Position numbers and translations under genes: made by a program
Sequence record: NC_133119.1
DNA: 64,000 bases
Strand: one strand, 5' to 3'
DNA from: Escherichia phage EscoHU1
Shown here: positions 37,946 through 44,681 of the stretch, piece by piece
Position numbering within the stretch: the stretch's first letter is position 1
How the letters are laid out: each line of letters begins with the position of its first letter
The notes under the pieces: generated by a model
What the model was told of the DNA's origin: nothing
Seen by the model: the letters and a program-made list of their open reading frames with translations, nothing else
The model's database searches: none

Positions 37946-38638
37946 TTATTTGTTAACGCGTACAAAGTATCCTTTATAGGCTCCAAGAATGGAGTTACCT
38001 AAGAATACTAGCCACATTGCTAGGATTGCATAAGATGCACCTGTAGATTGAGCAGTTACAAGCCAAATGTATACAGTACCAATGTTAATAGCAATCCAGA
38101 TCAGCCATTGTTCAGCATATTGCTTGACCATAAGCCACATAGCAATCACACTACCAACCGCAGTAAATGCATCGAGCATCGGGAATGGATCAGCTGTAGT
38201 AGCAAGGAAGCTACCGTAACCTAAAGTAGCTACTGCTAGAACCCCTAGAGTCAGCAAAGCTTGGGCTTTAGTCAGAATCTTAGTTGGAACATCTGGCAGA
38301 TTACTTGGCTTATTTTTATGCCATAAGTACATTCCGTAGAACTGCATAGGAACGTAGTACAATAGGTTTAATGCTGCGTTACCATAAAGATCTGCATTTA
38401 AAGCTGTAATACCATAGGTAAGAACACCAACTAAGCCCCAAATATAGTTGGAAACGCGTCCTTTTGCAACCAAAATAACACAAACTACGTTGGTTATCGC
38501 AGTAGCCCAATCTAGAGGTGTACCATTATAGTTAGCTAAACTAATGAAGGCAACCGCTATGAACAGCCACAGATATTCCAGAGGTTTCCAGTTTTTAAAG
38601 TCATTTACGAGATAGTTAGTCATATTAAAACTCTCCAA
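37946..38638 (-). CDS. pnuC: nicotinamide riboside/NMN transporter PnuC-like
   Basis: 230 aa multi-TM; family resemblance (WLFIAVAFISL...YGMYLW). Confidence 0.65.
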   Translation of the reverse strand: MESFNMTNYLVNDFKNWKPLEYLWLFIAVAFISLANYNGTPLDWATAITNVVCVILVAKGRVSNYIWGLVGVLTYGITALNADLYGNAALNLLYYVPMQFYGMYLWHKNKPSNLPDVPTKILTKAQALLTLGVLAVATLGYGSFLATTADPFPMLDAFTAVGSVIAMWLMVKQYAEQWLIWIAINIGTVYIWLVTAQSTGASYAILAMWLVFLGNSILGAYKGYFVRVNK

Positions 38639-39680
38639 CGTTAAAGTGATGAATCAGCCAGTCTACTGCGTTTACTGCTTCGTCCATACGAACTTTGTAG
38701 TCCGGGGAGTCGATGTAAACAGTACGCCCTTCAGGGAACTGATTTGGAAATTCTTTCTTCATCTGCTCGAACAGTTCAGAAGTAATTGAACGATCGGAGT
38801 TAATACGTAAACCATCATCTACCCACTTGACAGTAGGCGCTAGAACAATTACTAAATCGTAATGTTCTTCTTTTGCAATTGCTGTAACCACAGGGTTCTT
38901 ACGATGTTCATAAAGTCTGTGGTAGAACTCAGTAATAAAAGCATTTGTATCCACAAACATGATCTTATTTGCAGTACGTTCTGCTTCAAATTCTAGCTCT
39001 TTGTGTCTGAACGCAATTTTACTATAATCTTCGCTGGTAAGCAGATTTTCGTTACCAACTAGATCAACTTCACAATACGTTCGGCCATATTCTTCTACCC
39101 ACGAAGTGTTGTATAGCTTCGCAAGGTATTTTGTTAAAGTAGTCTTTCCCGAGCTTTCAGTCCCAATGATTACAACCTTACGCACGTAATCTTTACGAAC
39201 TACGCTAGGAAGAAACTCCCAATACTTCATAAGATCATTACGAATCATTGTAGCTGAGATTGGAACACGAGTCCGATCAGAATCTACAATATAATGACCA
39301 AACTTCGGCAGATATTTCTTATATTCTGCATCATAGTCTAGTTCGCTAGAGAAAATGGTGATCTCAGGCAAATGTCCATAATTTTCATTAAGGATTCTAG
39401 CATATTCCGGCCAACCATTCGGATATTCAGGAATATCATCTTCAATAATGTACTCTACCGAAACGTGCTCAATATCCGCGTAAGTTTGTTCTAACCAACG
39501 AAGTCGATTCTTTAACTGTAATACTTCCTGATCACGTGTGTTCTGCTTATCCAGCCAACGATTATCATGACTAACTACAACAATAACTCGTTCACACATA
39601 GTTGCTGCTGTGTTTATTAGGTTAATATGACCACGCGTTAATGGTGCGAACTTACCAATTACTAGACCAGTCTTAATCAT
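38625..39680 (-). CDS. nadR: NadR-like bifunctional NMN adenylyltransferase / ribosylnicotinamide kinase
   Basis: GKFAPLTRGH nucleotidyltransferase motif + P-loop GTESSGKTT; start set at MIKTGLVIGKF after GAGG RBS. Confidence 0.7.
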   Translation of the reverse strand: MIKTGLVIGKFAPLTRGHINLINTAATMCERVIVVVSHDNRWLDKQNTRDQEVLQLKNRLRWLEQTYADIEHVSVEYIIEDDIPEYPNGWPEYARILNENYGHLPEITIFSSELDYDAEYKKYLPKFGHYIVDSDRTRVPISATMIRNDLMKYWEFLPSVVRKDYVRKVVIIGTESSGKTTLTKYLAKLYNTSWVEEYGRTYCEVDLVGNENLLTSEDYSKIAFRHKELEFEAERTANKIMFVDTNAFITEFYHRLYEHRKNPVVTAIAKEEHYDLVIVLAPTVKWVDDGLRINSDRSITSELFEQMKKEFPNQFPEGRTVYIDSPDYKVRMDEAVNAVDWLIHHFNVGEF

Positions 39681-39710
39681 ATTTGATTCCTCTCTCAAAT
39701 TTATAAATAT

Positions 39711-39739
39711 ATTATACAGAGAATTTAGCATTCAAGCAA
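39711..39739 (-). promoter_or_regulatory. early sigma70 promoter (-35 TTGCTT, -10 TATAAT)
   Basis: 17-bp spacer. Confidence 0.7.
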
Positions 39740-39884: not shown

Positions 39885-39945
39885 ATATGTTATGGATGAG
39901 TGATCAAAGAGACACACATTTTCTATATACTAGGAGGTGTCAAAA

Positions 39946-40974
39946 ATGACAGAAGAAGTAGCTAAGAAACCTGAATCTCTAAGTGAAGTAGCAGCAGAAC
40001 TGCATCGTCACGAAGAATCAGACAAGAAAAAGTGGGAAAAGCTTAAAGCTCAAGAGCGAGCTGACGAGCATCATTATCATCATCACCATCATGAACACTA
40101 TGAGGAAGATGATGAAGACGACGAAGAAGAAGATGAACATGAACATCATGGTTATCACAAATATGGAGAAAGAAAAATGCAAGAACCAGTAAACGTATTC
40201 ACTAACGGCTTCCCTGGCCTGATGGGTGGTTACCCAGCTAACGCAGGTGCTTTCGGTGGAGAAGGTATGGGTCTATTCGGAGCTATCCTAATCGGTGCTC
40301 TATTAACAGGCGGATTCGGTGGATTTGGTGGATTTGGCGGACGTGGAGCAGGTGCTGTGGCTGAATTAACTGGTGTAGAAACTGTTCTGAGTAACCAAAA
40401 TACGTCAAGTATCCTATCTGCAATCAATACTGCTCGTACTGAAGCTAACCAGGGAACTGGTGCTGTTCTAAGCGCAGTAAATGGTGTAGGTGCTGCAGGT
40501 GCTGCTAGCACTCAGCAGATTCTGACTTCTCTGTACGGTACTGGTGCTAACCTGTCCAATCAGATCTGTCAGGAAACTCGTAGCGTTATTCAGGGTCAGT
40601 TTGACCTGTCTCGCCAGATCGATCAGTCCTTCGCGGCTAACCAGATCGCTCGTGCTCAAGACAAGTTTGATGCTGCTCAGATCGCTTTCCAGCAGACTAT
40701 TCAGACTAACAACCAGTTCGCTGCTGTAGCTGCACAGGCGTGCGCTAACCAGAACGCTCTGGAACGTCAGATCGCTGAATGTTGCTGTGAACTTCAGACT
40801 GCAATCGCTGGTGTAACTACTGCGCGTATTCAGGATGAATTAGATGAATGCCGTCTGCGTGAAGCAATCGCTGCAGGTAATGGTGCTAATGGTCAGGTAA
40901 TCAACCAAATCGCTGTAAGTCTTGGTGCTATCACTCAGACTCTAGCTGGTCTGCAGGCTAAACTGCCGGCTTAA
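39946..40974 (+). CDS. low-complexity protein: His/acidic-rich N-terminus, Gly-rich segment, Q/A-rich C-terminus
   Basis: AGGAGG RBS then ATG (track's GTG start at 39937 trimmed); HHYHHHHHEHYEEDDEDDEEEDEHEHH; GGFGGFGGFGG. Confidence 0.55.
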   Translation: MTEEVAKKPESLSEVAAELHRHEESDKKKWEKLKAQERADEHHYHHHHHEHYEEDDEDDEEEDEHEHHGYHKYGERKMQEPVNVFTNGFPGLMGGYPANAGAFGGEGMGLFGAILIGALLTGGFGGFGGFGGRGAGAVAELTGVETVLSNQNTSSILSAINTARTEANQGTGAVLSAVNGVGAAGAASTQQILTSLYGTGANLSNQICQETRSVIQGQFDLSRQIDQSFAANQIARAQDKFDAAQIAFQQTIQTNNQFAAVAAQACANQNALERQIAECCCELQTAIAGVTTARIQDELDECRLREAIAAGNGANGQVINQIAVSLGAITQTLAGLQAKLPA

Positions 40975-40996
40975 TAATTAAGGGGAGGAGCCCATT

Positions 40997-41431
40997 ATGA
41001 GTAAATATGGTTTTGTGAACAACGGATTTAATCAACAAATGGGCTCCCAGCAGCCCGTTCCGGGTCTAGATAACCCTTACTTACAACAGTTGCAACAGCG
41101 TTTGGCAGAAGCACAAAATATGCAACAGCAGTTCCAACAACCTGGAACTGCTAACCCTATGCAGATGATGCAACAGCAAATGGTAGGGCAGCCGCAAATG
41201 CCTCAACAAATGCAGCCTCAGATGCAGCAAATGCAACAAATGCCTCAACAGCAGCAAGTTCAACAACTCCAACATCCGCAGGTATCTGCGGAAGGACAGG
41301 CTGTTCTAGCCCTTTTCGAAGACTTCGCTAAAACAGAGGATGGGAAGCAACTTGTATCGCTTATGGGTAAGTTTAACAGCTTCTGTCAGAGTCAGGTTGC
41401 AAAAGCTCAGAATGGGGGTAATAACTCCTAA
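40997..41431 (+). CDS. Gln-rich protein
   Basis: 144 aa; GGAGG RBS; long Q/M/P repeats. Confidence 0.5.
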   Translation: MSKYGFVNNGFNQQMGSQQPVPGLDNPYLQQLQQRLAEAQNMQQQFQQPGTANPMQMMQQQMVGQPQMPQQMQPQMQQMQQMPQQQQVQQLQHPQVSAEGQAVLALFEDFAKTEDGKQLVSLMGKFNSFCQSQVAKAQNGGNNS

Positions 41432-41440
41432 GGAGAAATT

Positions 41441-41635
41441 ATGTGTTGTAGAAAACCTGTGTCATGCTGTCCTATGCCTGTAGCACGTTGTTGCTCTCCA
41501 GCAATGTTTACACAAATACCGGTGTTCAATCCCTTTGCCTTTAAGCCTACTCTTATCCTGCCCCCTAGAGTAGATTTTCAGTCAAGATTGGTCTCCCGTA
41601 TGGGTGGTTGCTGTACACCGAGAGTATGGTTCTAA
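41441..41635 (+). CDS. small Cys-rich protein
   Basis: 64 aa; AGGAG RBS; 9 Cys. Confidence 0.4.
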   Translation: MCCRKPVSCCPMPVARCCSPAMFTQIPVFNPFAFKPTLILPPRVDFQSRLVSRMGGCCTPRVWF

Positions 41636-41648
41636 ACCAAAAAACAAA

Positions 41649-41673
41649 AGCCCCTACGTCTTTTGACTAGGGG
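41649..41673. terminator. bidirectional rho-independent terminator
   Basis: GCCCCTA-loop-TAGGGGC with T-runs on both sides. Confidence 0.65.
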
Positions 41674-41682
41674 CTTTCTTGT

Positions 41683-42213
41683 TTATAAATTTAAGTAATC
41701 TAGAGAAGGTATCACACCATCAAATTCTTCTAGGATAGCAAACTCTCCAGCAAATTCTTTCCTCATTTCGTTAGCTTTTGCTATCGCACTTCCAAGATCT
41801 TCGTAACCAAAAGATCCTCCTGATCTTTTAATACCTTCCTTATCTCTTATTAATACTCTCCATTTTTGCCTGTTCTTCTCCCAGCATACATTAGCATACC
41901 CAGACTTAGACTTTAATTTCTTATTTCTTTGATTTTGAGAATCTGTAGATTCTCTTAGATTGTCCCATGCATTATTATTTCTAATCCTATCTTTATGATC
42001 GACCATGCTAGGTAGGTATCCTTTTACATAAAGGAATGCTAGAACATGGGCTAAGTACATTTTTCCAGAGATCTGAATTCTGATATATCCATCAGATGTT
42101 AGGCTTCCCGCAATGCTGCCGGCCTTCTTGTTTCCTCTACTAACCTTATATGTAAACAATCCAGTTTCTTGATCATAGTCAAAAAGCTCTTTCAATTTTT
42201 CTTGAGTTAACAT
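41683..42213 (-). CDS. HNH endonuclease with AP2-like DNA-binding domain
   Basis: 176 aa; YLAHVLAF...VDHKDRIRNNNAWDNLR; C-terminal GYANVCWEK...RSGGSFGYEDLGSAIAKANEMR. Confidence 0.7.
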   Translation of the reverse strand: MLTQEKLKELFDYDQETGLFTYKVSRGNKKAGSIAGSLTSDGYIRIQISGKMYLAHVLAFLYVKGYLPSMVDHKDRIRNNNAWDNLRESTDSQNQRNKKLKSKSGYANVCWEKNRQKWRVLIRDKEGIKRSGGSFGYEDLGSAIAKANEMRKEFAGEFAILEEFDGVIPSLDYLNL

Positions 42214-42287
42214 AAGTTCCTTAAATACAGAAAAGCCCTGCGCTCTCCAGGGAACGCAGGGCTTACTTCAGAGATTACATGCTGGTA

Positions 42288-43232
42288 TTACTTATTACGC
42301 ATATCCATGATCATCTGGCCATCGTAACCAGTTCCCACTACTGTTTGCGGTACACCACCTTGGTATTTTTCAGCACGAAGCATTTCAACTTCCAGCTGCT
42401 TCCAACGAATCATTTCAGGAGTAATGGTACGTTGCAGAGCGGCGTTAGCTTCAGCTTCTTTCTTAGCTGCGTACAGTTTAGCATCTGCGTCACGTTCGTT
42501 AGCTACTGCCATGTTTTCACGAGCAGAGCGATCTGCTTCAGCTTGCTTAACTTTCTGCTGTGCTTCTTGTTCAACACGAGCCAGTTCAGCTTTTGCTGCG
42601 TTAACTTGTTCTTCACGAACTTTTGTGTTCTGTACCTGTTCCATAATTACCGGTGGCAGAGTAATATCCTGAAGGAATACTTGCTTAACGGTGTAACCAT
42701 AAGGGCGCGCATACTCTTCTACTTCTTGCTGAATAGCAGTTTGCAGTTGAGCCTGAATCTTAGCGTCGAACAGATCTTGTGCTTTTGGTACAGACTTACC
42801 AAACTCACGAATCGTAGATAGCATCTTCTCTTCAACGTATTTGTTAAGAGCTTGATCCTGAGTACCTGCGTTAACACGGTTCATAGGAGCTTTAGCTCCA
42901 TCAAACTGTAACATAACGGTAATGTCAACAGTAGACTTAAACTTATCCTGGCTAGGAACCTGAAGTTTATCCAGTTTCATAGAAATATCTTTCGTACTAA
43001 AAGTATCAAAAGAGGCTAATGGGTTAACAATATGGAAGCCTGGCAATACAGGATTCGGGCTAACTTTACCCAGGAAAGTTTGAGTCTTAACAGTACCATC
43101 CTGAACAACTGTATAGGAATTGAGAGCCAGAATAAGAGCACCAAGACCAACAGCAGCACCAACACCCCAACGTTTAATAGTACGAATTACTTTTTGCTCA
43201 GAAGTCAGTTCTTTAGTGTTTTTAGTAAACAT
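42288..43232 (-). CDS. SPFH/band-7 (stomatin/prohibitin/HflK-like) membrane protein
   Basis: N-terminal TM then SPFH-like core and long coiled coil; start moved to MFTKNTKEL to clear the tRNA. Confidence 0.65.
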   Translation of the reverse strand: MFTKNTKELTSEQKVIRTIKRWGVGAAVGLGALILALNSYTVVQDGTVKTQTFLGKVSPNPVLPGFHIVNPLASFDTFSTKDISMKLDKLQVPSQDKFKSTVDITVMLQFDGAKAPMNRVNAGTQDQALNKYVEEKMLSTIREFGKSVPKAQDLFDAKIQAQLQTAIQQEVEEYARPYGYTVKQVFLQDITLPPVIMEQVQNTKVREEQVNAAKAELARVEQEAQQKVKQAEADRSARENMAVANERDADAKLYAAKKEAEANAALQRTITPEMIRWKQLEVEMLRAEKYQGGVPQTVVGTGYDGQMIMDMRNK

Positions 43233-43265
43233 ATATTTCCTTTGTTTAGTTACAGTTAATAAAAT

Positions 43266-43340
43266 TGGCCGAGGTGACAGGATTCGAACCTGCATAAAGG
43301 AATTTAGAAGACTCCTGCCTATCCCTTAGACTACACCCCG
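43266..43340 (-). tRNA. tRNA-Arg (UCU)
   Basis: Loop CTTCTAA, T-arm GCAGGTTCGAATCCTGT, G73-CCA. Confidence 0.75.
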
Positions 43341-44199
43341 TTTAGGTATTTTTAAGAACTCTCGTAAAAGTCCATAAAAATACCCGACGGTAGGTAGGGT
43401 CAGCCCCCTCAGATTAAGCTCTGCAGCCCTTCCGTCAGACAATATCTTCCAGTTTAAGTCAGGGTGACTTTGTGGTTATGTTCTCCGTATGTGAAGAACT
43501 CGGTTAGGCTTAGGTCATGACTCCCAGCCTGCTGCTGCCGCTCAACAGGAATTATCGCGAATTACCTGTACTATTGGGCACCATTAGTGACATCTCTCAT
43601 GTCAGCATTTCCCACTCTCATATTCACGCGGTCTGTTAGAATCGCACCTCCGATTTTCGATGCGAAGCTGGATGCCTAGTCTCTAGGTTAAACGGGGCAC
43701 ACACTAGGCAGTGATCCCGAGTTCCGAGTTTGGTTGAGGCCGTCAGGTTTCCTCGTGGTTTAGCTGTTTCGATTCTAACCTAATACTGATCAGGCGGTGT
43801 ACCTCCTGAACCGTCATAGTATGTACTACAGCAGCGAATGCTTATCCGGTATAAGCCCGAGTTATCTGATTCTTTCCGACCGCAGGATTCGAACCTGCAT
43901 CTTCCACCAGTTACGGTTTGATATTACCGTTTATACTAGGACGGCAGTGTTATCACATAAGTCAGTTCGACACCCCACTAACATAAACTAGAGAAGAGTT
44001 TACGAGATTTCGGGACAGCTCCCGAGTTTTCCGCAGATTTTCAGTTCCCTATCAATAGCAATAAGCGTTAGCTCGTAGCCTCTCTCAGAGTACTTACTAG
44101 TCTCCAACTCACCGACTCTATTCAGTGGAATAGCTATCCTAGTAGGAATCACTAAACTCACTCAGCGTAATCGGCTCGCTGTTCTCTAATTTATGAATC
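43341..44199 (-). ncRNA. candidate structured non-coding RNA / long leader (GC-richer ORF-free island)
   Basis: About 860 nt with no ORF of 60 aa or more on the transcribed strand; immediately downstream of promoter 44200-44228; T-arm-like hairpin at about 43875-43895. Confidence 0.35.
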
Positions 44200-44228
44200 T
44201 ATTATACAGAATTTTGAAGCGTTTAGCA
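44200..44228 (-). promoter_or_regulatory. early sigma70 promoter (-35 TTGCTA, -10 TATAAT) reading into the ORF-free island
   Basis: 17-bp spacer. Confidence 0.7.
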
Positions 44229-44237
44229 AATCAATTT

Positions 44238-44681
44238 TTAATTAAATTCGCCAGCAACCTGAGCAGCAATGCCACCATCGTAACGACCAGGAAACTCTTC
44301 CTTAATCGCTTTCATCAGCATACCCTTTGTAATCCCAGGATTCAACTTAACTAATTCTGCAAAGTATTTGCGAATCTCAGAATCAGATAACTGAGGCGGC
44401 AGATACTGTTGTAGCCATTTGTTCAGTATATATTCATACTGAGCAGACTGCAAGCTATAATTATCAAGGTCTTGACCGTGAAGTTTAGCTTTCGTCTGAT
44501 TAATGCTTTTCAGTTGAGCTTTTAGATAAGATACAAACTGTTCAGAAGTAATGAAGTCTTTATCAACACGCTGAAGATCTCCGATTATGGTCTGGTAGCT
44601 TTTAGCTACTTCTTTATCAGAACCATCAACCTTAGATTCCTGCAAAGCCCTACGCAAAACATCTAGAATATTCTCTTCCAT
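44238..44681 (-). CDS. GatB/YqeY-domain-like protein
   Basis: 147 aa; C-terminus GMLMKAIKEEFPGRYDGGIAAQVAGEF. Confidence 0.5.
   Translation of the reverse strand: MEENILDVLRRALQESKVDGSDKEVAKSYQTIIGDLQRVDKDFITSEQFVSYLKAQLKSINQTKAKLHGQDLDNYSLQSAQYEYILNKWLQQYLPPQLSDSEIRKYFAELVKLNPGITKGMLMKAIKEEFPGRYDGGIAAQVAGEFN

What the first reader, a model, noticed from the sequence alone, without database searches (positions are those of the whole stretch)
42288..43232. SPFH/band-7 membrane protein in an early operon
A stomatin/prohibitin/HflKC-like protein with a long coiled coil is unusual cargo for a lytic phage. Such proteins scaffold membrane microdomains and regulate FtsH. It could modulate host membrane proteases, lysis timing or superinfection exclusion. 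It is flanked by an HNH-AP2 endonuclease gene, which hints at mobility.
Basis: partly seen in the sequence, partly recalled or inferred. Interest (0 to 1): 0.45.

Follow-up and report, generated by a model that had tools for sequence, protein, structure and literature searches.

The report
Conserved T5-type phage SPFH membrane protein
The gene is real and does encode a membrane-anchored SPFH (stomatin/prohibitin-like) protein, but it is the ordinary, long-annotated T5.080 gene found in nearly all T5-like and many T4-like phages, and its function is still untested.

Summary
The gene at 42288..43232 (minus strand) encodes 314 aa with one N-terminal membrane helix, a Band_7/SPFH domain (Pfam E=4.6e-19), a 76-residue helix and a conserved C-terminal tail. 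The AlphaFold model matches erlin, prohibitin, HflC/K, stomatin and QmcA subunits over their full length.

The window is a T5-like phage and the gene is the ortholog of T5.080. It is not unusual cargo:
- DNA matches occur in 446 T5-like records.
- Protein relatives occur in 734 phage records, including T4-like Klebsiella and Aeromonas phages, where the domain was noted in 2006.
- Solo chromosomal copies exist in Morganella and Providencia.

dN/dS of 0.02-0.08 shows it is translated and constrained. A published T5 knock-down screen found it dispensable.

The gene is transcribed alone behind a long non-coding RNA and tRNA-Arg. The HNH gene is a separate ~590-bp insertion beyond its terminator, seen in only one other genome, so it says nothing about SPFH mobility.

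The "lipoprotein" label is unsupported because there is no lipobox. The SPFH domain probably faces the periplasm, as in HflK/C. The most likely mechanism is a homo-oligomeric cage that modulates inner-membrane protein turnover (FtsH). That is inference, about 0.3. The feature is already known; interest is modest.

The parts
44201..44229 (-). Sigma-70-type promoter-like site (TTGCTA-17-TATAAT) at the position of T5 early promoter P16-17, overlapping the 3' end of the upstream YqeY-like gene
   Evidence: Consensus scan. The T5 record places promoter P16-17 at the same relative position. The sequence is conserved with Sepoy. Function is inferred, not shown.
43341..44200 (-). ORF-free leader homologous in blocks to the T5 stable RNA 'RNAX'. 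It contains a tRNA-like element at 43874..43945.
   Evidence: No ORF of 60 aa or more on the minus strand. Alignment to the T5 RNAX region (annotation). Rfam tRNA match of 29.3 bits against a gathering score of 29.
43266..43340 (-). tRNA-Arg (anticodon UCU), 33 nt upstream of the SPFH start codon and co-oriented with it
   Evidence: ARAGORN. Rfam tRNA 49.3 bits. Same arrangement in T5.
43238..43243 (-). Ribosome-binding site AAAGGA, 5 nt before the ATG
   Evidence: Read directly from the sequence. Invariant in T5 and duplicated with the start in Sepoy.
42288..43232 (-). SPFH/band-7 protein gene, 314 aa plus stop, ortholog of T5.080. Layout: K/R-rich tail at residues 1-21, membrane helix at about 22-42, SPFH core at 40-191, long helix at 194-269, second helix at 272-289, and conserved C-terminal strands at 297-311.
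43107..43169 (-). Codons for the single N-terminal membrane helix (residues about 22-42). It is a signal anchor, not a lipoprotein signal.
   Evidence: Hydropathy maximum at residues 24-43 (19-residue windows starting at 24 and 25 tie). No Cys in the first 45 residues of the window protein, and none at a conserved position in the 43 aligned relatives.
42233..42264 (-). Intrinsic terminator hairpin (13 pairs, 8 G-C) ending the SPFH unit. Its 3' arm carries A^GCGC (42240..42244), the site annotated in T5 as a major single-strand nick.
   Evidence: Terminator scan. Nick annotation in T5 and its exact position. Invariant across window, MSP1 and T5.
41683..42213 (-). Free-standing HNH homing-endonuclease gene (176 aa). 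It is an independent ~590-bp insertion between the SPFH terminator and the bidirectional terminator and is not part of the SPFH unit.
   Evidence: HNH_3 E=2e-13. PHROG 99. Absent from T5 and Sepoy, present in MSP1. AP2 match is sub-threshold.
41640..41677 (.). Bidirectional terminator shared with the convergent plus-strand genes (T5.077-079 homologs)
   Evidence: Hairpin read from the sequence. The T5 record annotates an 'efficient bidirectional rho-independent transcription terminator' at the same place.

Best explanation
SHOWN (about 0.95).
- The gene is the T5.080 ortholog of a T5-like phage.
- It is a translated, strongly constrained accessory protein of the SPFH superfamily.
- Its domain order (N-terminal membrane helix, SPFH core, long CC1 helix, CC2 helix, C-terminal strands) is that of subunits which build domed oligomeric cages on membranes, such as HflK/C, prohibitin, erlin, stomatin and QmcA.
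- It is transcribed from an early-type promoter behind a long non-coding RNA and tRNA-Arg, as the only ORF of the unit.

INFERRED (about 0.6).
- The K/R-rich tail stays in the cytoplasm and the SPFH domain faces the periplasm, the orientation of HflK/C and not of QmcA or YqiK.
- With no partner gene, the protein assembles as a homo-oligomeric ring or cage on the outer face of the inner membrane.

MOST LIKELY MECHANISM (about 0.3-0.35).
- Like the other non-cytosolic SPFH cages (HflK/C with FtsH, prohibitin with the m-AAA protease, erlin with ERAD), the cage fences off a patch of inner membrane.
- It thereby changes which membrane proteins the host FtsH quality-control protease can reach, for example by enclosing FtsH or shielding phage membrane proteins.
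- The benefit is conditional, because the gene is dispensable on a laboratory host.
For: - Architecture: the TM-SPFH-CC1-CC2-CT layout of the model equals the cage-subunit layout described in PMC12624060.
- Expression and constraint: RBS, promoter and terminator are present. dN/dS is 0.02-0.08. Residues 38-312 are about 80% identical to T4-like copies although synonymous sites are saturated.
- Topology: all 43 aligned relatives have a positively charged N-tail followed by one membrane helix. Seven or eight of 118 distant family representatives replace the anchor with a true lipoprotein signal such as LLGSC or LLGAC, which also places the domain outside the cytoplasm.
- Gene context: no NfeD gene lies nearby in the phage, the T4-likes or the bacterial copies. 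In E. coli the periplasmic, FtsH-regulating HflK/C also lack an nfeD neighbour, whereas the cytoplasmic QmcA and YqiK each have one (PMC10434171).
- Link to degradation: the non-cytosolic SPFH complexes (HflK/C, PHB1/2, erlin1/2) all act on membrane-protein degradation (PMC12624060, PMC12048511).
- Host-directed action: solo chromosomal copies in Morganella and Providencia sit among housekeeping genes. The protein can therefore work with conserved host components alone.
- Dispensability: T5.080 knock-down was scored 'Not Fit' in CRISPRi-ART (PMC11879866 supplement).
Against: - No experiment addresses localisation, oligomerisation or FtsH binding.
- By sequence the family is not HflK/C-like. 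There is no NCBIfam hit. HflK and HflC are not found in PDB sequence searches at E<=1, while QmcA (E=8e-7) and prohibitin-2 (E=8.5e-5) are. The family profile scores QmcA 31.5, HflC 19.8 and HflK 0.5 bits.
- My charge-count topology rule gives a tie for E. coli HflK and HflC themselves, so the periplasmic orientation rests mainly on the N-tail and the lipobox-bearing relatives.
- HflK/C is a hetero-oligomer of two paralogs, whereas here there is one gene.
- Being in two plastic genome regions with no conserved neighbours gives no guilt-by-association support for any mechanism.
Confidence: 0.33

Rival explanations
1. FtsH-independent membrane scaffold or stabiliser. The cage organises lipid and protein microdomains and keeps the inner membrane sealed and energised during infection, in the manner of flotillins and PspA-linked SPFH proteins. 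This would protect burst size under envelope stress.
For: The fold is shared with flotillin and stomatin. Bacterial SPFH proteins are tied to membrane-stress tolerance (HflKC and aminoglycoside or oxidative stress, PMC10434171; a B. subtilis SPFH protein linking PspA to the membrane, PMC8581546). The gene stands alone in both phages and bacteria. It is dispensable in rich laboratory conditions, as expected for a stress-conditional function.
Against: Flotillin-type bacterial proteins face the cytoplasm and pair with NfeD. Here the domain is predicted to be periplasmic and no NfeD gene is present. There is no direct evidence.
Confidence: 0.25
2. Superinfection exclusion or envelope immunity. A periplasm-facing ring covers inner-membrane entry routes or energising motors (such as ExbBD/TolQR-type stators or injection conduits) and blocks DNA entry of competing phages or colicin import once the cell is infected.
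Against: The PADLOC defence library gives no match. No known exclusion protein has this fold. The Morganella and Providencia copies are not in prophages or defence islands.
Confidence: 0.15
3. Lysis-timing modulator. The cage sequesters or stabilises holin, antiholin or spanin components at the inner membrane.
For: In T4-like phages the gene lies in the tk-rI region. It is two genes after the rI antiholin in Matisse and a few kb from rI in 44RR2.8t. A cell-wall hydrolase gene lies 1.7 kb upstream in the window.
Against: The tk-rI interval and the T5 tRNA arm are plastic regions with unrelated cargo. In T5-likes the gene is not next to the holin/endolysin cassette. The early-type promoter is an odd fit for a lysis function. 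Bacterial chromosomal copies have no lysis context.
Confidence: 0.1
4. Counter-defence. The cage neutralises a membrane-embedded abortive-infection sensor or effector of some hosts.
For: The gene is an accessory gene exchanged between unrelated lytic phage families. It is dispensable on a defence-poor K-12 host. It sits in a genome arm rich in host-takeover genes; the CRISPRi-ART annotation table labels the nearby T5.076 as 'anti-defense'.
Against: There is no evidence for any target. Conservation is very high, unlike the rapid diversification typical of anti-defence genes (dN/dS 0.02-0.08). Housekeeping-context copies exist in bacteria.
Confidence: 0.1
5. The SPFH gene is mobile cargo of the adjacent HNH homing endonuclease.
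For: The two genes are adjacent.
Against: The HNH gene is a clean insertion downstream of the SPFH terminator. It is absent from T5, Sepoy and all but one of 446 matching genomes, while the SPFH gene is present in all of them.
Confidence: 0.02

Closest known systems
Phage T5 gene T5.080 (YP_006908, annotated 'lipoprotein') and its orthologs in Markadamsvirinae
   Same: Same position (RNAX, tRNA-Arg, gene, terminator with nick site), same length and 91% amino-acid identity. Other T5-like phages carry copies that are 98-99.7% identical, some already annotated as 'SPFH domain-containing/band 7' or 'PHB domain-containing'.
   Different: Nothing of substance differs. Here and in MSP1 an HNH gene has been inserted after the terminator. 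Some relatives such as Sepoy have an extra 66-aa ORF between the tRNA and the gene.
SPFH proteins of T4-like phages (44RRORF098c, Aeh1ORF064c, RB43ORF139c; Slopekvirus and Karamvirus 'lipoprotein')
   Same: Same family, with 61-82% identity over residues 38-312 and the same single N-terminal membrane helix. Their SPFH domain was reported in 2006 (PMC1524935).
   Different: The N-terminal tails differ, as does the genomic setting (the tk-rI plastic region, not the tRNA arm).
E. coli HflK/HflC (modulators of FtsH)
   Different: There is no detectable sequence-family relationship. There is one gene and not a K/C pair. HflK's long cytoplasmic N-terminus is absent. FtsH binding is untested.
E. coli QmcA (with NfeD partner YbbJ) and eukaryotic prohibitins and erlins
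   Same: These are the best sequence matches among solved structures (QmcA E=8e-7, prohibitin-2 E=8.5e-5) and the best structural matches (erlin, prohibitin). Prohibitin and erlin share the non-cytosolic orientation and the link to membrane-protein degradation.
   Different: QmcA faces the cytoplasm and is encoded next to an NfeD gene. Neither applies here. Identity is only 12-20%.
Solo chromosomal SPFH genes of Morganella and Providencia, and sporadic copies in Vibrionaceae
   Same: Same subfamily, 55-58% identical, with the same architecture and no partner gene.
   Different: They are cellular genes in housekeeping or island contexts. The direction of transfer between phage and host is unknown.

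Membership tests
SPFH / Band 7 superfamily (Pfam PF01145) | Sequence match to the Band_7 profile above the curated threshold | tested here: met
   E=4.6e-19, 69.6 bits against a cut-off of 23.6, residues 50-224.
SPFH / Band 7 superfamily (Pfam PF01145) | SPFH alpha/beta fold followed by CC1 and CC2 helices and a C-terminal segment, preceded by an N-terminal membrane anchor | tested here: met
SPFH / Band 7 superfamily (Pfam PF01145) | Assembly into a large ring or cage oligomer on a membrane | not testable with these tools
   Only monomer prediction was available. It is inferred from the conserved CC1/CC2/C-terminal elements.
HflK/HflC (FtsH modulators) | Match to the HflK or HflC equivalog models, or sequence-level relationship | tested here: not met
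   No NCBIfam family at E<=0.1. HflK/C are absent from PDB sequence hits at E<=1. The family profile scores HflC 19.8 and HflK 0.5 bits, against 31.5 for QmcA.
HflK/HflC (FtsH modulators) | Two adjacent paralogous genes forming a hetero-oligomer | tested here: not met
   A single SPFH gene is present in the window, T5, the T4-likes and the bacterial loci.
HflK/HflC (FtsH modulators) | N-in / C-out topology with the SPFH domain in the periplasm | tested here: inconclusive
   A K/R-rich N-tail precedes the helix in all 43 relatives, and some distant relatives carry a lipoprotein signal. Both favour a periplasmic domain. However, the same charge count gives a tie for E. coli HflK and HflC. Experimental mapping is needed.
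HflK/HflC (FtsH modulators) | Physical complex with FtsH and an effect on its substrates | not testable with these tools
   Requires pull-down, cryo-EM or degradation assays. The known HflK Arg191 contact with FtsH residues 62-64 cannot be mapped reliably at about 15% identity.
Flotillin-like / QmcA-YqiK type (SPFH-NfeD operons) | Adjacent NfeD-family partner gene | tested here: not met
   No NfeD match in the neighbouring ORFs scanned against Pfam: eight in the window, and the ORFs flanking the Morganella and Providencia copies. The 64-aa ORF at 41441..41635 was scanned against PHROGs only. No NfeD gene is listed in the annotated T4-like loci or the called genes of the Vibrionaceae loci. In E. 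coli, qmcA is followed by ybbJ.
Flotillin-like / QmcA-YqiK type (SPFH-NfeD operons) | SPFH domain facing the cytoplasm | tested here: inconclusive
   The prediction favours the opposite orientation. QmcA has no N-tail.
Bacterial lipoprotein (the label carried by T5.080 and PHROG 200) | Signal peptide ending in a lipobox with an invariant Cys | tested here: not met
   There is no Cys in the first 45 residues of the window protein. None is at a conserved position in the 43 relatives, and only 1 of 118 close homologs has a lipobox-like motif. The label probably came from distant lipobox-bearing relatives.
Known anti-phage defence components (PADLOC) | Match to a defence-system protein model | tested here: not met
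   No family at E<=0.1.
HNH-AP2 homing endonuclease (the neighbour gene) | HNH_3 nuclease motif plus an AP2 DNA-binding domain | tested here: inconclusive
   HNH_3 E=2e-13 is met. AP2 reaches only E=0.072, 13.8 bits against a cut-off of 33.3. PHROG 99 'HNH endonuclease' scores E=2e-63.

The most novel reading that the evidence does not exclude
A family of lytic-phage SPFH proteins, exchanged between T5-like siphoviruses, T4-like myoviruses and Morganellaceae chromosomes, acts as a viral mimic of HflK/C. A single-gene, periplasm-facing homo-oligomeric cage would capture or insulate host FtsH, or another inner-membrane machine such as a stator-type motor or a defence sensor. That would rewire membrane-protein turnover during infection. 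It would be the first functionally defined viral SPFH cage.
Probability: 0.25. Interest if true: 0.65.

Novelty: already known. Interest (0 to 1): 0.3.

Why it matters
As an observation it adds nothing new. The gene has been annotated in T5 since 2005, and proteins up to 99.7% identical are already in GenBank, some of them (e.g. at 98.7% identity) labelled SPFH/band 7.

The open question is its function. This small, distinct SPFH subfamily has about 350 clusters at E<=1e-10 among 1.8 billion representatives. It is near-universal in T5-like phages, shared at about 80% identity with unrelated T4-like phages and under very strong purifying selection. Yet it is dispensable in the laboratory and has never been studied.

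Recent cryo-EM work defined SPFH cages as regulators of membrane-protein degradation. A single-gene phage version would therefore be a compact, tractable model, and possibly a tool for perturbing FtsH or inner-membrane organisation.

A practical correction also follows: the widespread 'lipoprotein' annotation for this family (PHROG 200, RefSeq) is not supported for the enterobacterial phage members.

Tried and rejected
- Longer ORF starting at 43295: rejected. The extension overlaps tRNA-Arg and orthologs start at the 43232 ATG.
- Lipoprotein: rejected because there is no lipobox.
- HflK/C orthology: rejected on sequence grounds.
- NfeD partner search in the window, T4-like phages and bacterial loci: none found.
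- Defence-system homology (PADLOC): none.
- HNH-driven mobility of the SPFH gene: rejected by comparative alignment.
- Conserved-neighbour analysis for a functional clue: contexts differ between T5-likes, T4-likes, Morganella, Providencia, Photobacterium and Thaumasiovibrio. Proximity to rI (T4-likes) and to NAD-salvage genes (window, Matisse) is suggestive at most.
- Literature searches for any functional study of phage SPFH, band-7 or prohibitin proteins, or of T5.080: only genome-annotation mentions and one genome-wide knock-down data point.
- Simple positive-inside charge count: it fails to resolve the E. coli HflK/C controls, so I down-weighted it.
- AlphaFold-database fold search: the library was unavailable.
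- Subfamily assignment from structural scores: erlin, prohibitin, HflC, HflK and QmcA are too close in Z to discriminate.
Full report
**What the window is.** The 64-kb window carries 28 tRNA genes, most of them between 27.9 and 36.9 kb. The region around the finding matches 446 phage records by megablast. Nearly all are Salmonella and Escherichia T5-like phages (Demerecviridae, mostly Epseptimavirus) at 91-96% identity. The finding therefore lies in the early-gene arm of a T5-like lytic phage.

**Checking the observation.**
- The minus strand has an ORF from 43295 to 42288. Its first 21 codons overlap tRNA-Arg(UCU) at 43266..43340.
- The ATG at 43232 is preceded by AAAGGA with a 5-nt spacer. 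It is the start used in T5, Sepoy and MSP1.
- Pfam Band_7/SPFH matches residues 50-224 at E=4.6e-19, 69.6 bits against a cut-off of 23.6. PHROG 200 matches end to end at E=1e-84.
- An AlphaFold2 model built on a 43-sequence alignment has mean pLDDT 75.6. It shows a helix at 11-37, which includes the hydrophobic membrane segment at about 22-42, an alpha/beta core at 40-191, a 76-residue helix at 194-269, a second helix at 272-289 and two short C-terminal strands.
- Foldseek against the PDB aligns 270-305 columns with erlin1/2 (E=2e-14), prohibitin, stomatin, HflK/C, QmcA and flotillin.
- The ORF is translated and constrained. dN/dS is 0.02-0.08 against other T5-like copies. Identity to a T4-like copy is 76% over the full-length alignment although nucleotide identity is 69% and synonymous sites are saturated.

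**How common it is.**
- The gene is the ortholog of T5.080 (91% identity). The T5 record annotates that gene as 'lipoprotein; similar to Aeh1ORF064c and 44RRORF098c; contains single transmembrane domain'.
- Its DNA is found in 446 records. A neighbouring core gene (the T5.087 homolog) is found at 80% identity or more in 436 records. The gene is therefore essentially universal in this phage group.
- tblastn finds relatives in 734 phage records. These include T4-like Slopekvirus and Karamvirus at about 78-82% over residues 38-312, and Aeromonas T4-likes at 61-65%. Proteus phages at about 76-80% and Vibrio phages at 23-44% also match.
- The SPFH domain in 44RR2.8t, Aeh1 and RB43 was tabulated in 2006 (PMC1524935).
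- Structure search of viral proteins finds SPFH proteins in Vibrio, Rhizobium and Streptomyces phages and in many giant viruses.
- 'Unusual cargo for a lytic phage' is therefore not correct. A 2026 paper still states that the reason for its presence in phage genomes is unclear (PMC13239085). I found no functional study.

**The family.**
- A profile search of 1.84 billion cluster representatives returns only 2023 hits at E<=1e-3, 351 at E<=1e-10 and 88 at E<=1e-30. This is a small, distinct branch of the very large SPFH superfamily.
- It is remote from the characterised families. There is no NCBIfam hit. Against PDB sequences the profile finds QmcA (E=8e-7) and prohibitin-2 (E=8.5e-5), but not HflK/C at E<=1. 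Scored directly, QmcA gets 31.5 bits, HflC 19.8 and HflK 0.5.
- Cellular members exist. Solo genes 55-58% identical occur in Morganella and Providencia among housekeeping genes, with different flanks in the two genera and no prophage genes.
- More distant copies occur in Vibrionaceae. One lies in an island with an integrase and transposases, and one lies after rpoD.
- No NfeD-type partner or second SPFH gene accompanies any copy.

**Transcription unit.**
- In T5 the annotated order is promoter P16-17, stable RNA 'RNAX' (719 nt), tRNA-Arg, T5.080 and a bidirectional terminator.
- The window has the same order. A TTGCTA-17-TATAAT site lies at 44229..44201. An ORF-free leader at 43341..44200 aligns in blocks with RNAX and contains a tRNA-like element. 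tRNA-Arg and the gene follow, and then a 13-pair hairpin terminator at 42264..42233.
- The gene is thus the only protein-coding gene of its unit, and not part of a multi-gene operon.
- 'Early' is inferred from position and strand among the tRNA and nucleotide-metabolism genes and from general knowledge of T5. I found no time-resolved data.

**The HNH neighbour.**
- The 176-aa ORF at 41683..42213 has an HNH_3 domain (E=2e-13) and matches PHROG 99. The AP2 match is sub-threshold.
- Alignment with T5, Sepoy and MSP1 shows a clean ~590-bp insertion between the SPFH terminator and the bidirectional terminator. T5 and Sepoy lack it, and only MSP1 shares it among the 446 records.
- It is a free-standing homing-endonuclease gene that landed beside the SPFH unit. 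It says nothing about mobility of the SPFH gene.

**Topology and the 'lipoprotein' label.**
- All 43 aligned relatives have a K/R-rich N-terminal tail and one hydrophobic helix. In the window protein the tail has 6 K/R against 2 D/E. None has a conserved lipobox cysteine, so the inherited label is unsupported for these members.
- Seven or eight of 118 distant representatives do carry a true lipoprotein signal such as LLGSC or LLGAC. That probably explains the label. It also argues that the SPFH domain of this family sits outside the cytoplasm.
- Together with the positive N-tail, this favours an N-in, periplasmic-domain orientation. That is the orientation of HflK/C. QmcA and YqiK face the cytoplasm and have NfeD neighbours (PMC10434171).
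- As a control, my charge count gives a tie for E. coli HflK and HflC. I treat the orientation as probable (about 0.6) and not as shown.

**Function.**
- The only experimental datum is the CRISPRi-ART screen of T5, where T5.080 knock-down was 'Not Fit' (PMC11879866 supplement). The gene is dispensable on a laboratory host.
- Occasional decay fits this. The RB43 copy has a frameshifted C-terminus and the mar004NP2 copy is split in two pieces.
- Against that stands strong purifying selection and retention across two unrelated lytic phage families. The benefit is therefore real but conditional.
- The non-cytosolic SPFH cages with this architecture all act on membrane-protein degradation: HflK/C with FtsH, prohibitin with the m-AAA protease, and erlin with ERAD. 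The top structural matches here are exactly these.
- I therefore favour a homo-oligomeric periplasm-facing cage that alters access of host FtsH to membrane substrates, at about 0.3-0.35.
- The rivals are an FtsH-independent membrane stabiliser (0.25), superinfection exclusion (0.15), lysis timing (0.1, hinted only by proximity to rI in T4-likes) and counter-defence (0.1; no PADLOC match).
- None can be decided by sequence alone.

**Verdict.** The feature is a long-annotated, near-universal accessory gene of T5-like phages, so it is already known. The claims of unusualness, operon membership and HNH-linked mobility do not hold. The functional question remains open and is moderately interesting.

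Noticed in passing
window 43341..44200 (-), with a tRNA-like element at 43874..43945 (-): An 860-nt ORF-free leader lies between the promoter-like site and tRNA-Arg. It aligns in conserved blocks with the T5 stable RNA 'RNAX' of unknown function. It contains a second tRNA-like element that just reaches the Rfam tRNA gathering score (29.3 against 29) but was not called by ARAGORN. Part of it is deleted in phage Sepoy.
   Followed up: partly
window 42240..42244 (-), inside the terminator 42233..42264: The 3' arm of the SPFH terminator carries A^GCGC at exactly the position where the T5 record annotates a 'major DNA single-chain interruption' (nick consensus Pu-pGCGC). The motif is invariant in window, MSP1 and T5. 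The HNH gene insertion begins about 20 bp downstream of it.
   Followed up: partly
window 41683..42213 (-): A free-standing HNH_3 endonuclease gene is present at this site only in this phage and phage MSP1 among 446 related genomes. It has its own RBS but no promoter-like site, so it is probably expressed by read-through of the weak SPFH terminator.
   Followed up: partly
window 39937..41635 (+): A convergent trio homologous to T5.077-079 (PHROG 8119, PHROG 7894 and an unassigned 64-aa ORF; the two larger proteins have no Pfam match and the 64-aa ORF was scanned against PHROGs only). It comprises a 345-aa protein with a His/Asp/Glu-rich N-terminus, a Gly-rich hydrophobic stretch and a long Ala/Gln-rich region, a Gln-rich 144-aa protein, and a Cys-rich 64-aa protein. 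Function is unknown. One relative is annotated, implausibly, as a cAMP-dependent kinase subunit in Sepoy.
   Followed up: no
window 37946..39731 (-): A PnuC nicotinamide-mononucleotide transporter and a NadR-like NMN adenylyltransferase/kinase pair (NAD salvage) lie 2.5 kb from the SPFH gene. T5 has no such pair at the corresponding position next to T5.077. In the T4-like phage Matisse a NUDIX/cytidyltransferase NAD-salvage gene directly follows the SPFH gene. This is possibly coincidence between plastic regions.
   Followed up: no
L018 5968..6939 (Morganella morganii chromosome); L010 5971..6912 (Providencia sp.): Solo chromosomal homologs, 55-58% identical to the phage protein and 90% identical to each other, sit among housekeeping genes with different flanks in the two genera. 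The direction of phage-host transfer is unresolved.
   Followed up: partly
L002 5109..5309 (Salmonella phage Sepoy): Some Epseptimaviruses carry an extra 66-aa ORF inserted between tRNA-Arg and the SPFH gene, with the RBS and start sequence AAGGAAATATATGTTTAC duplicated at the junction. It is absent from the window and from T5.
   Followed up: no
window 44238..44681 (-): The gene upstream of the SPFH unit is a YqeY/GatB-like protein (PHROG 1460 'tRNA amidotransferase'; Pfam YqeY 25.4 bits, just below the cut-off of 27). Its 3' end overlaps the promoter-like site of the RNAX/tRNA-Arg/SPFH unit.
   Followed up: no
L006 (contig labelled Flagellimonas marina, 178,077 bp): A 178-kb contig in a Flagellimonas genome assembly encodes a copy 77% identical to the query, and its size matches T4-like Karamvirus and Slopekvirus genomes. 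It is probably a contaminating phage genome and not a bacterial locus. A 174-kb 'Klebsiella pneumoniae plasmid' record (P0026) looks similar.
   Followed up: no
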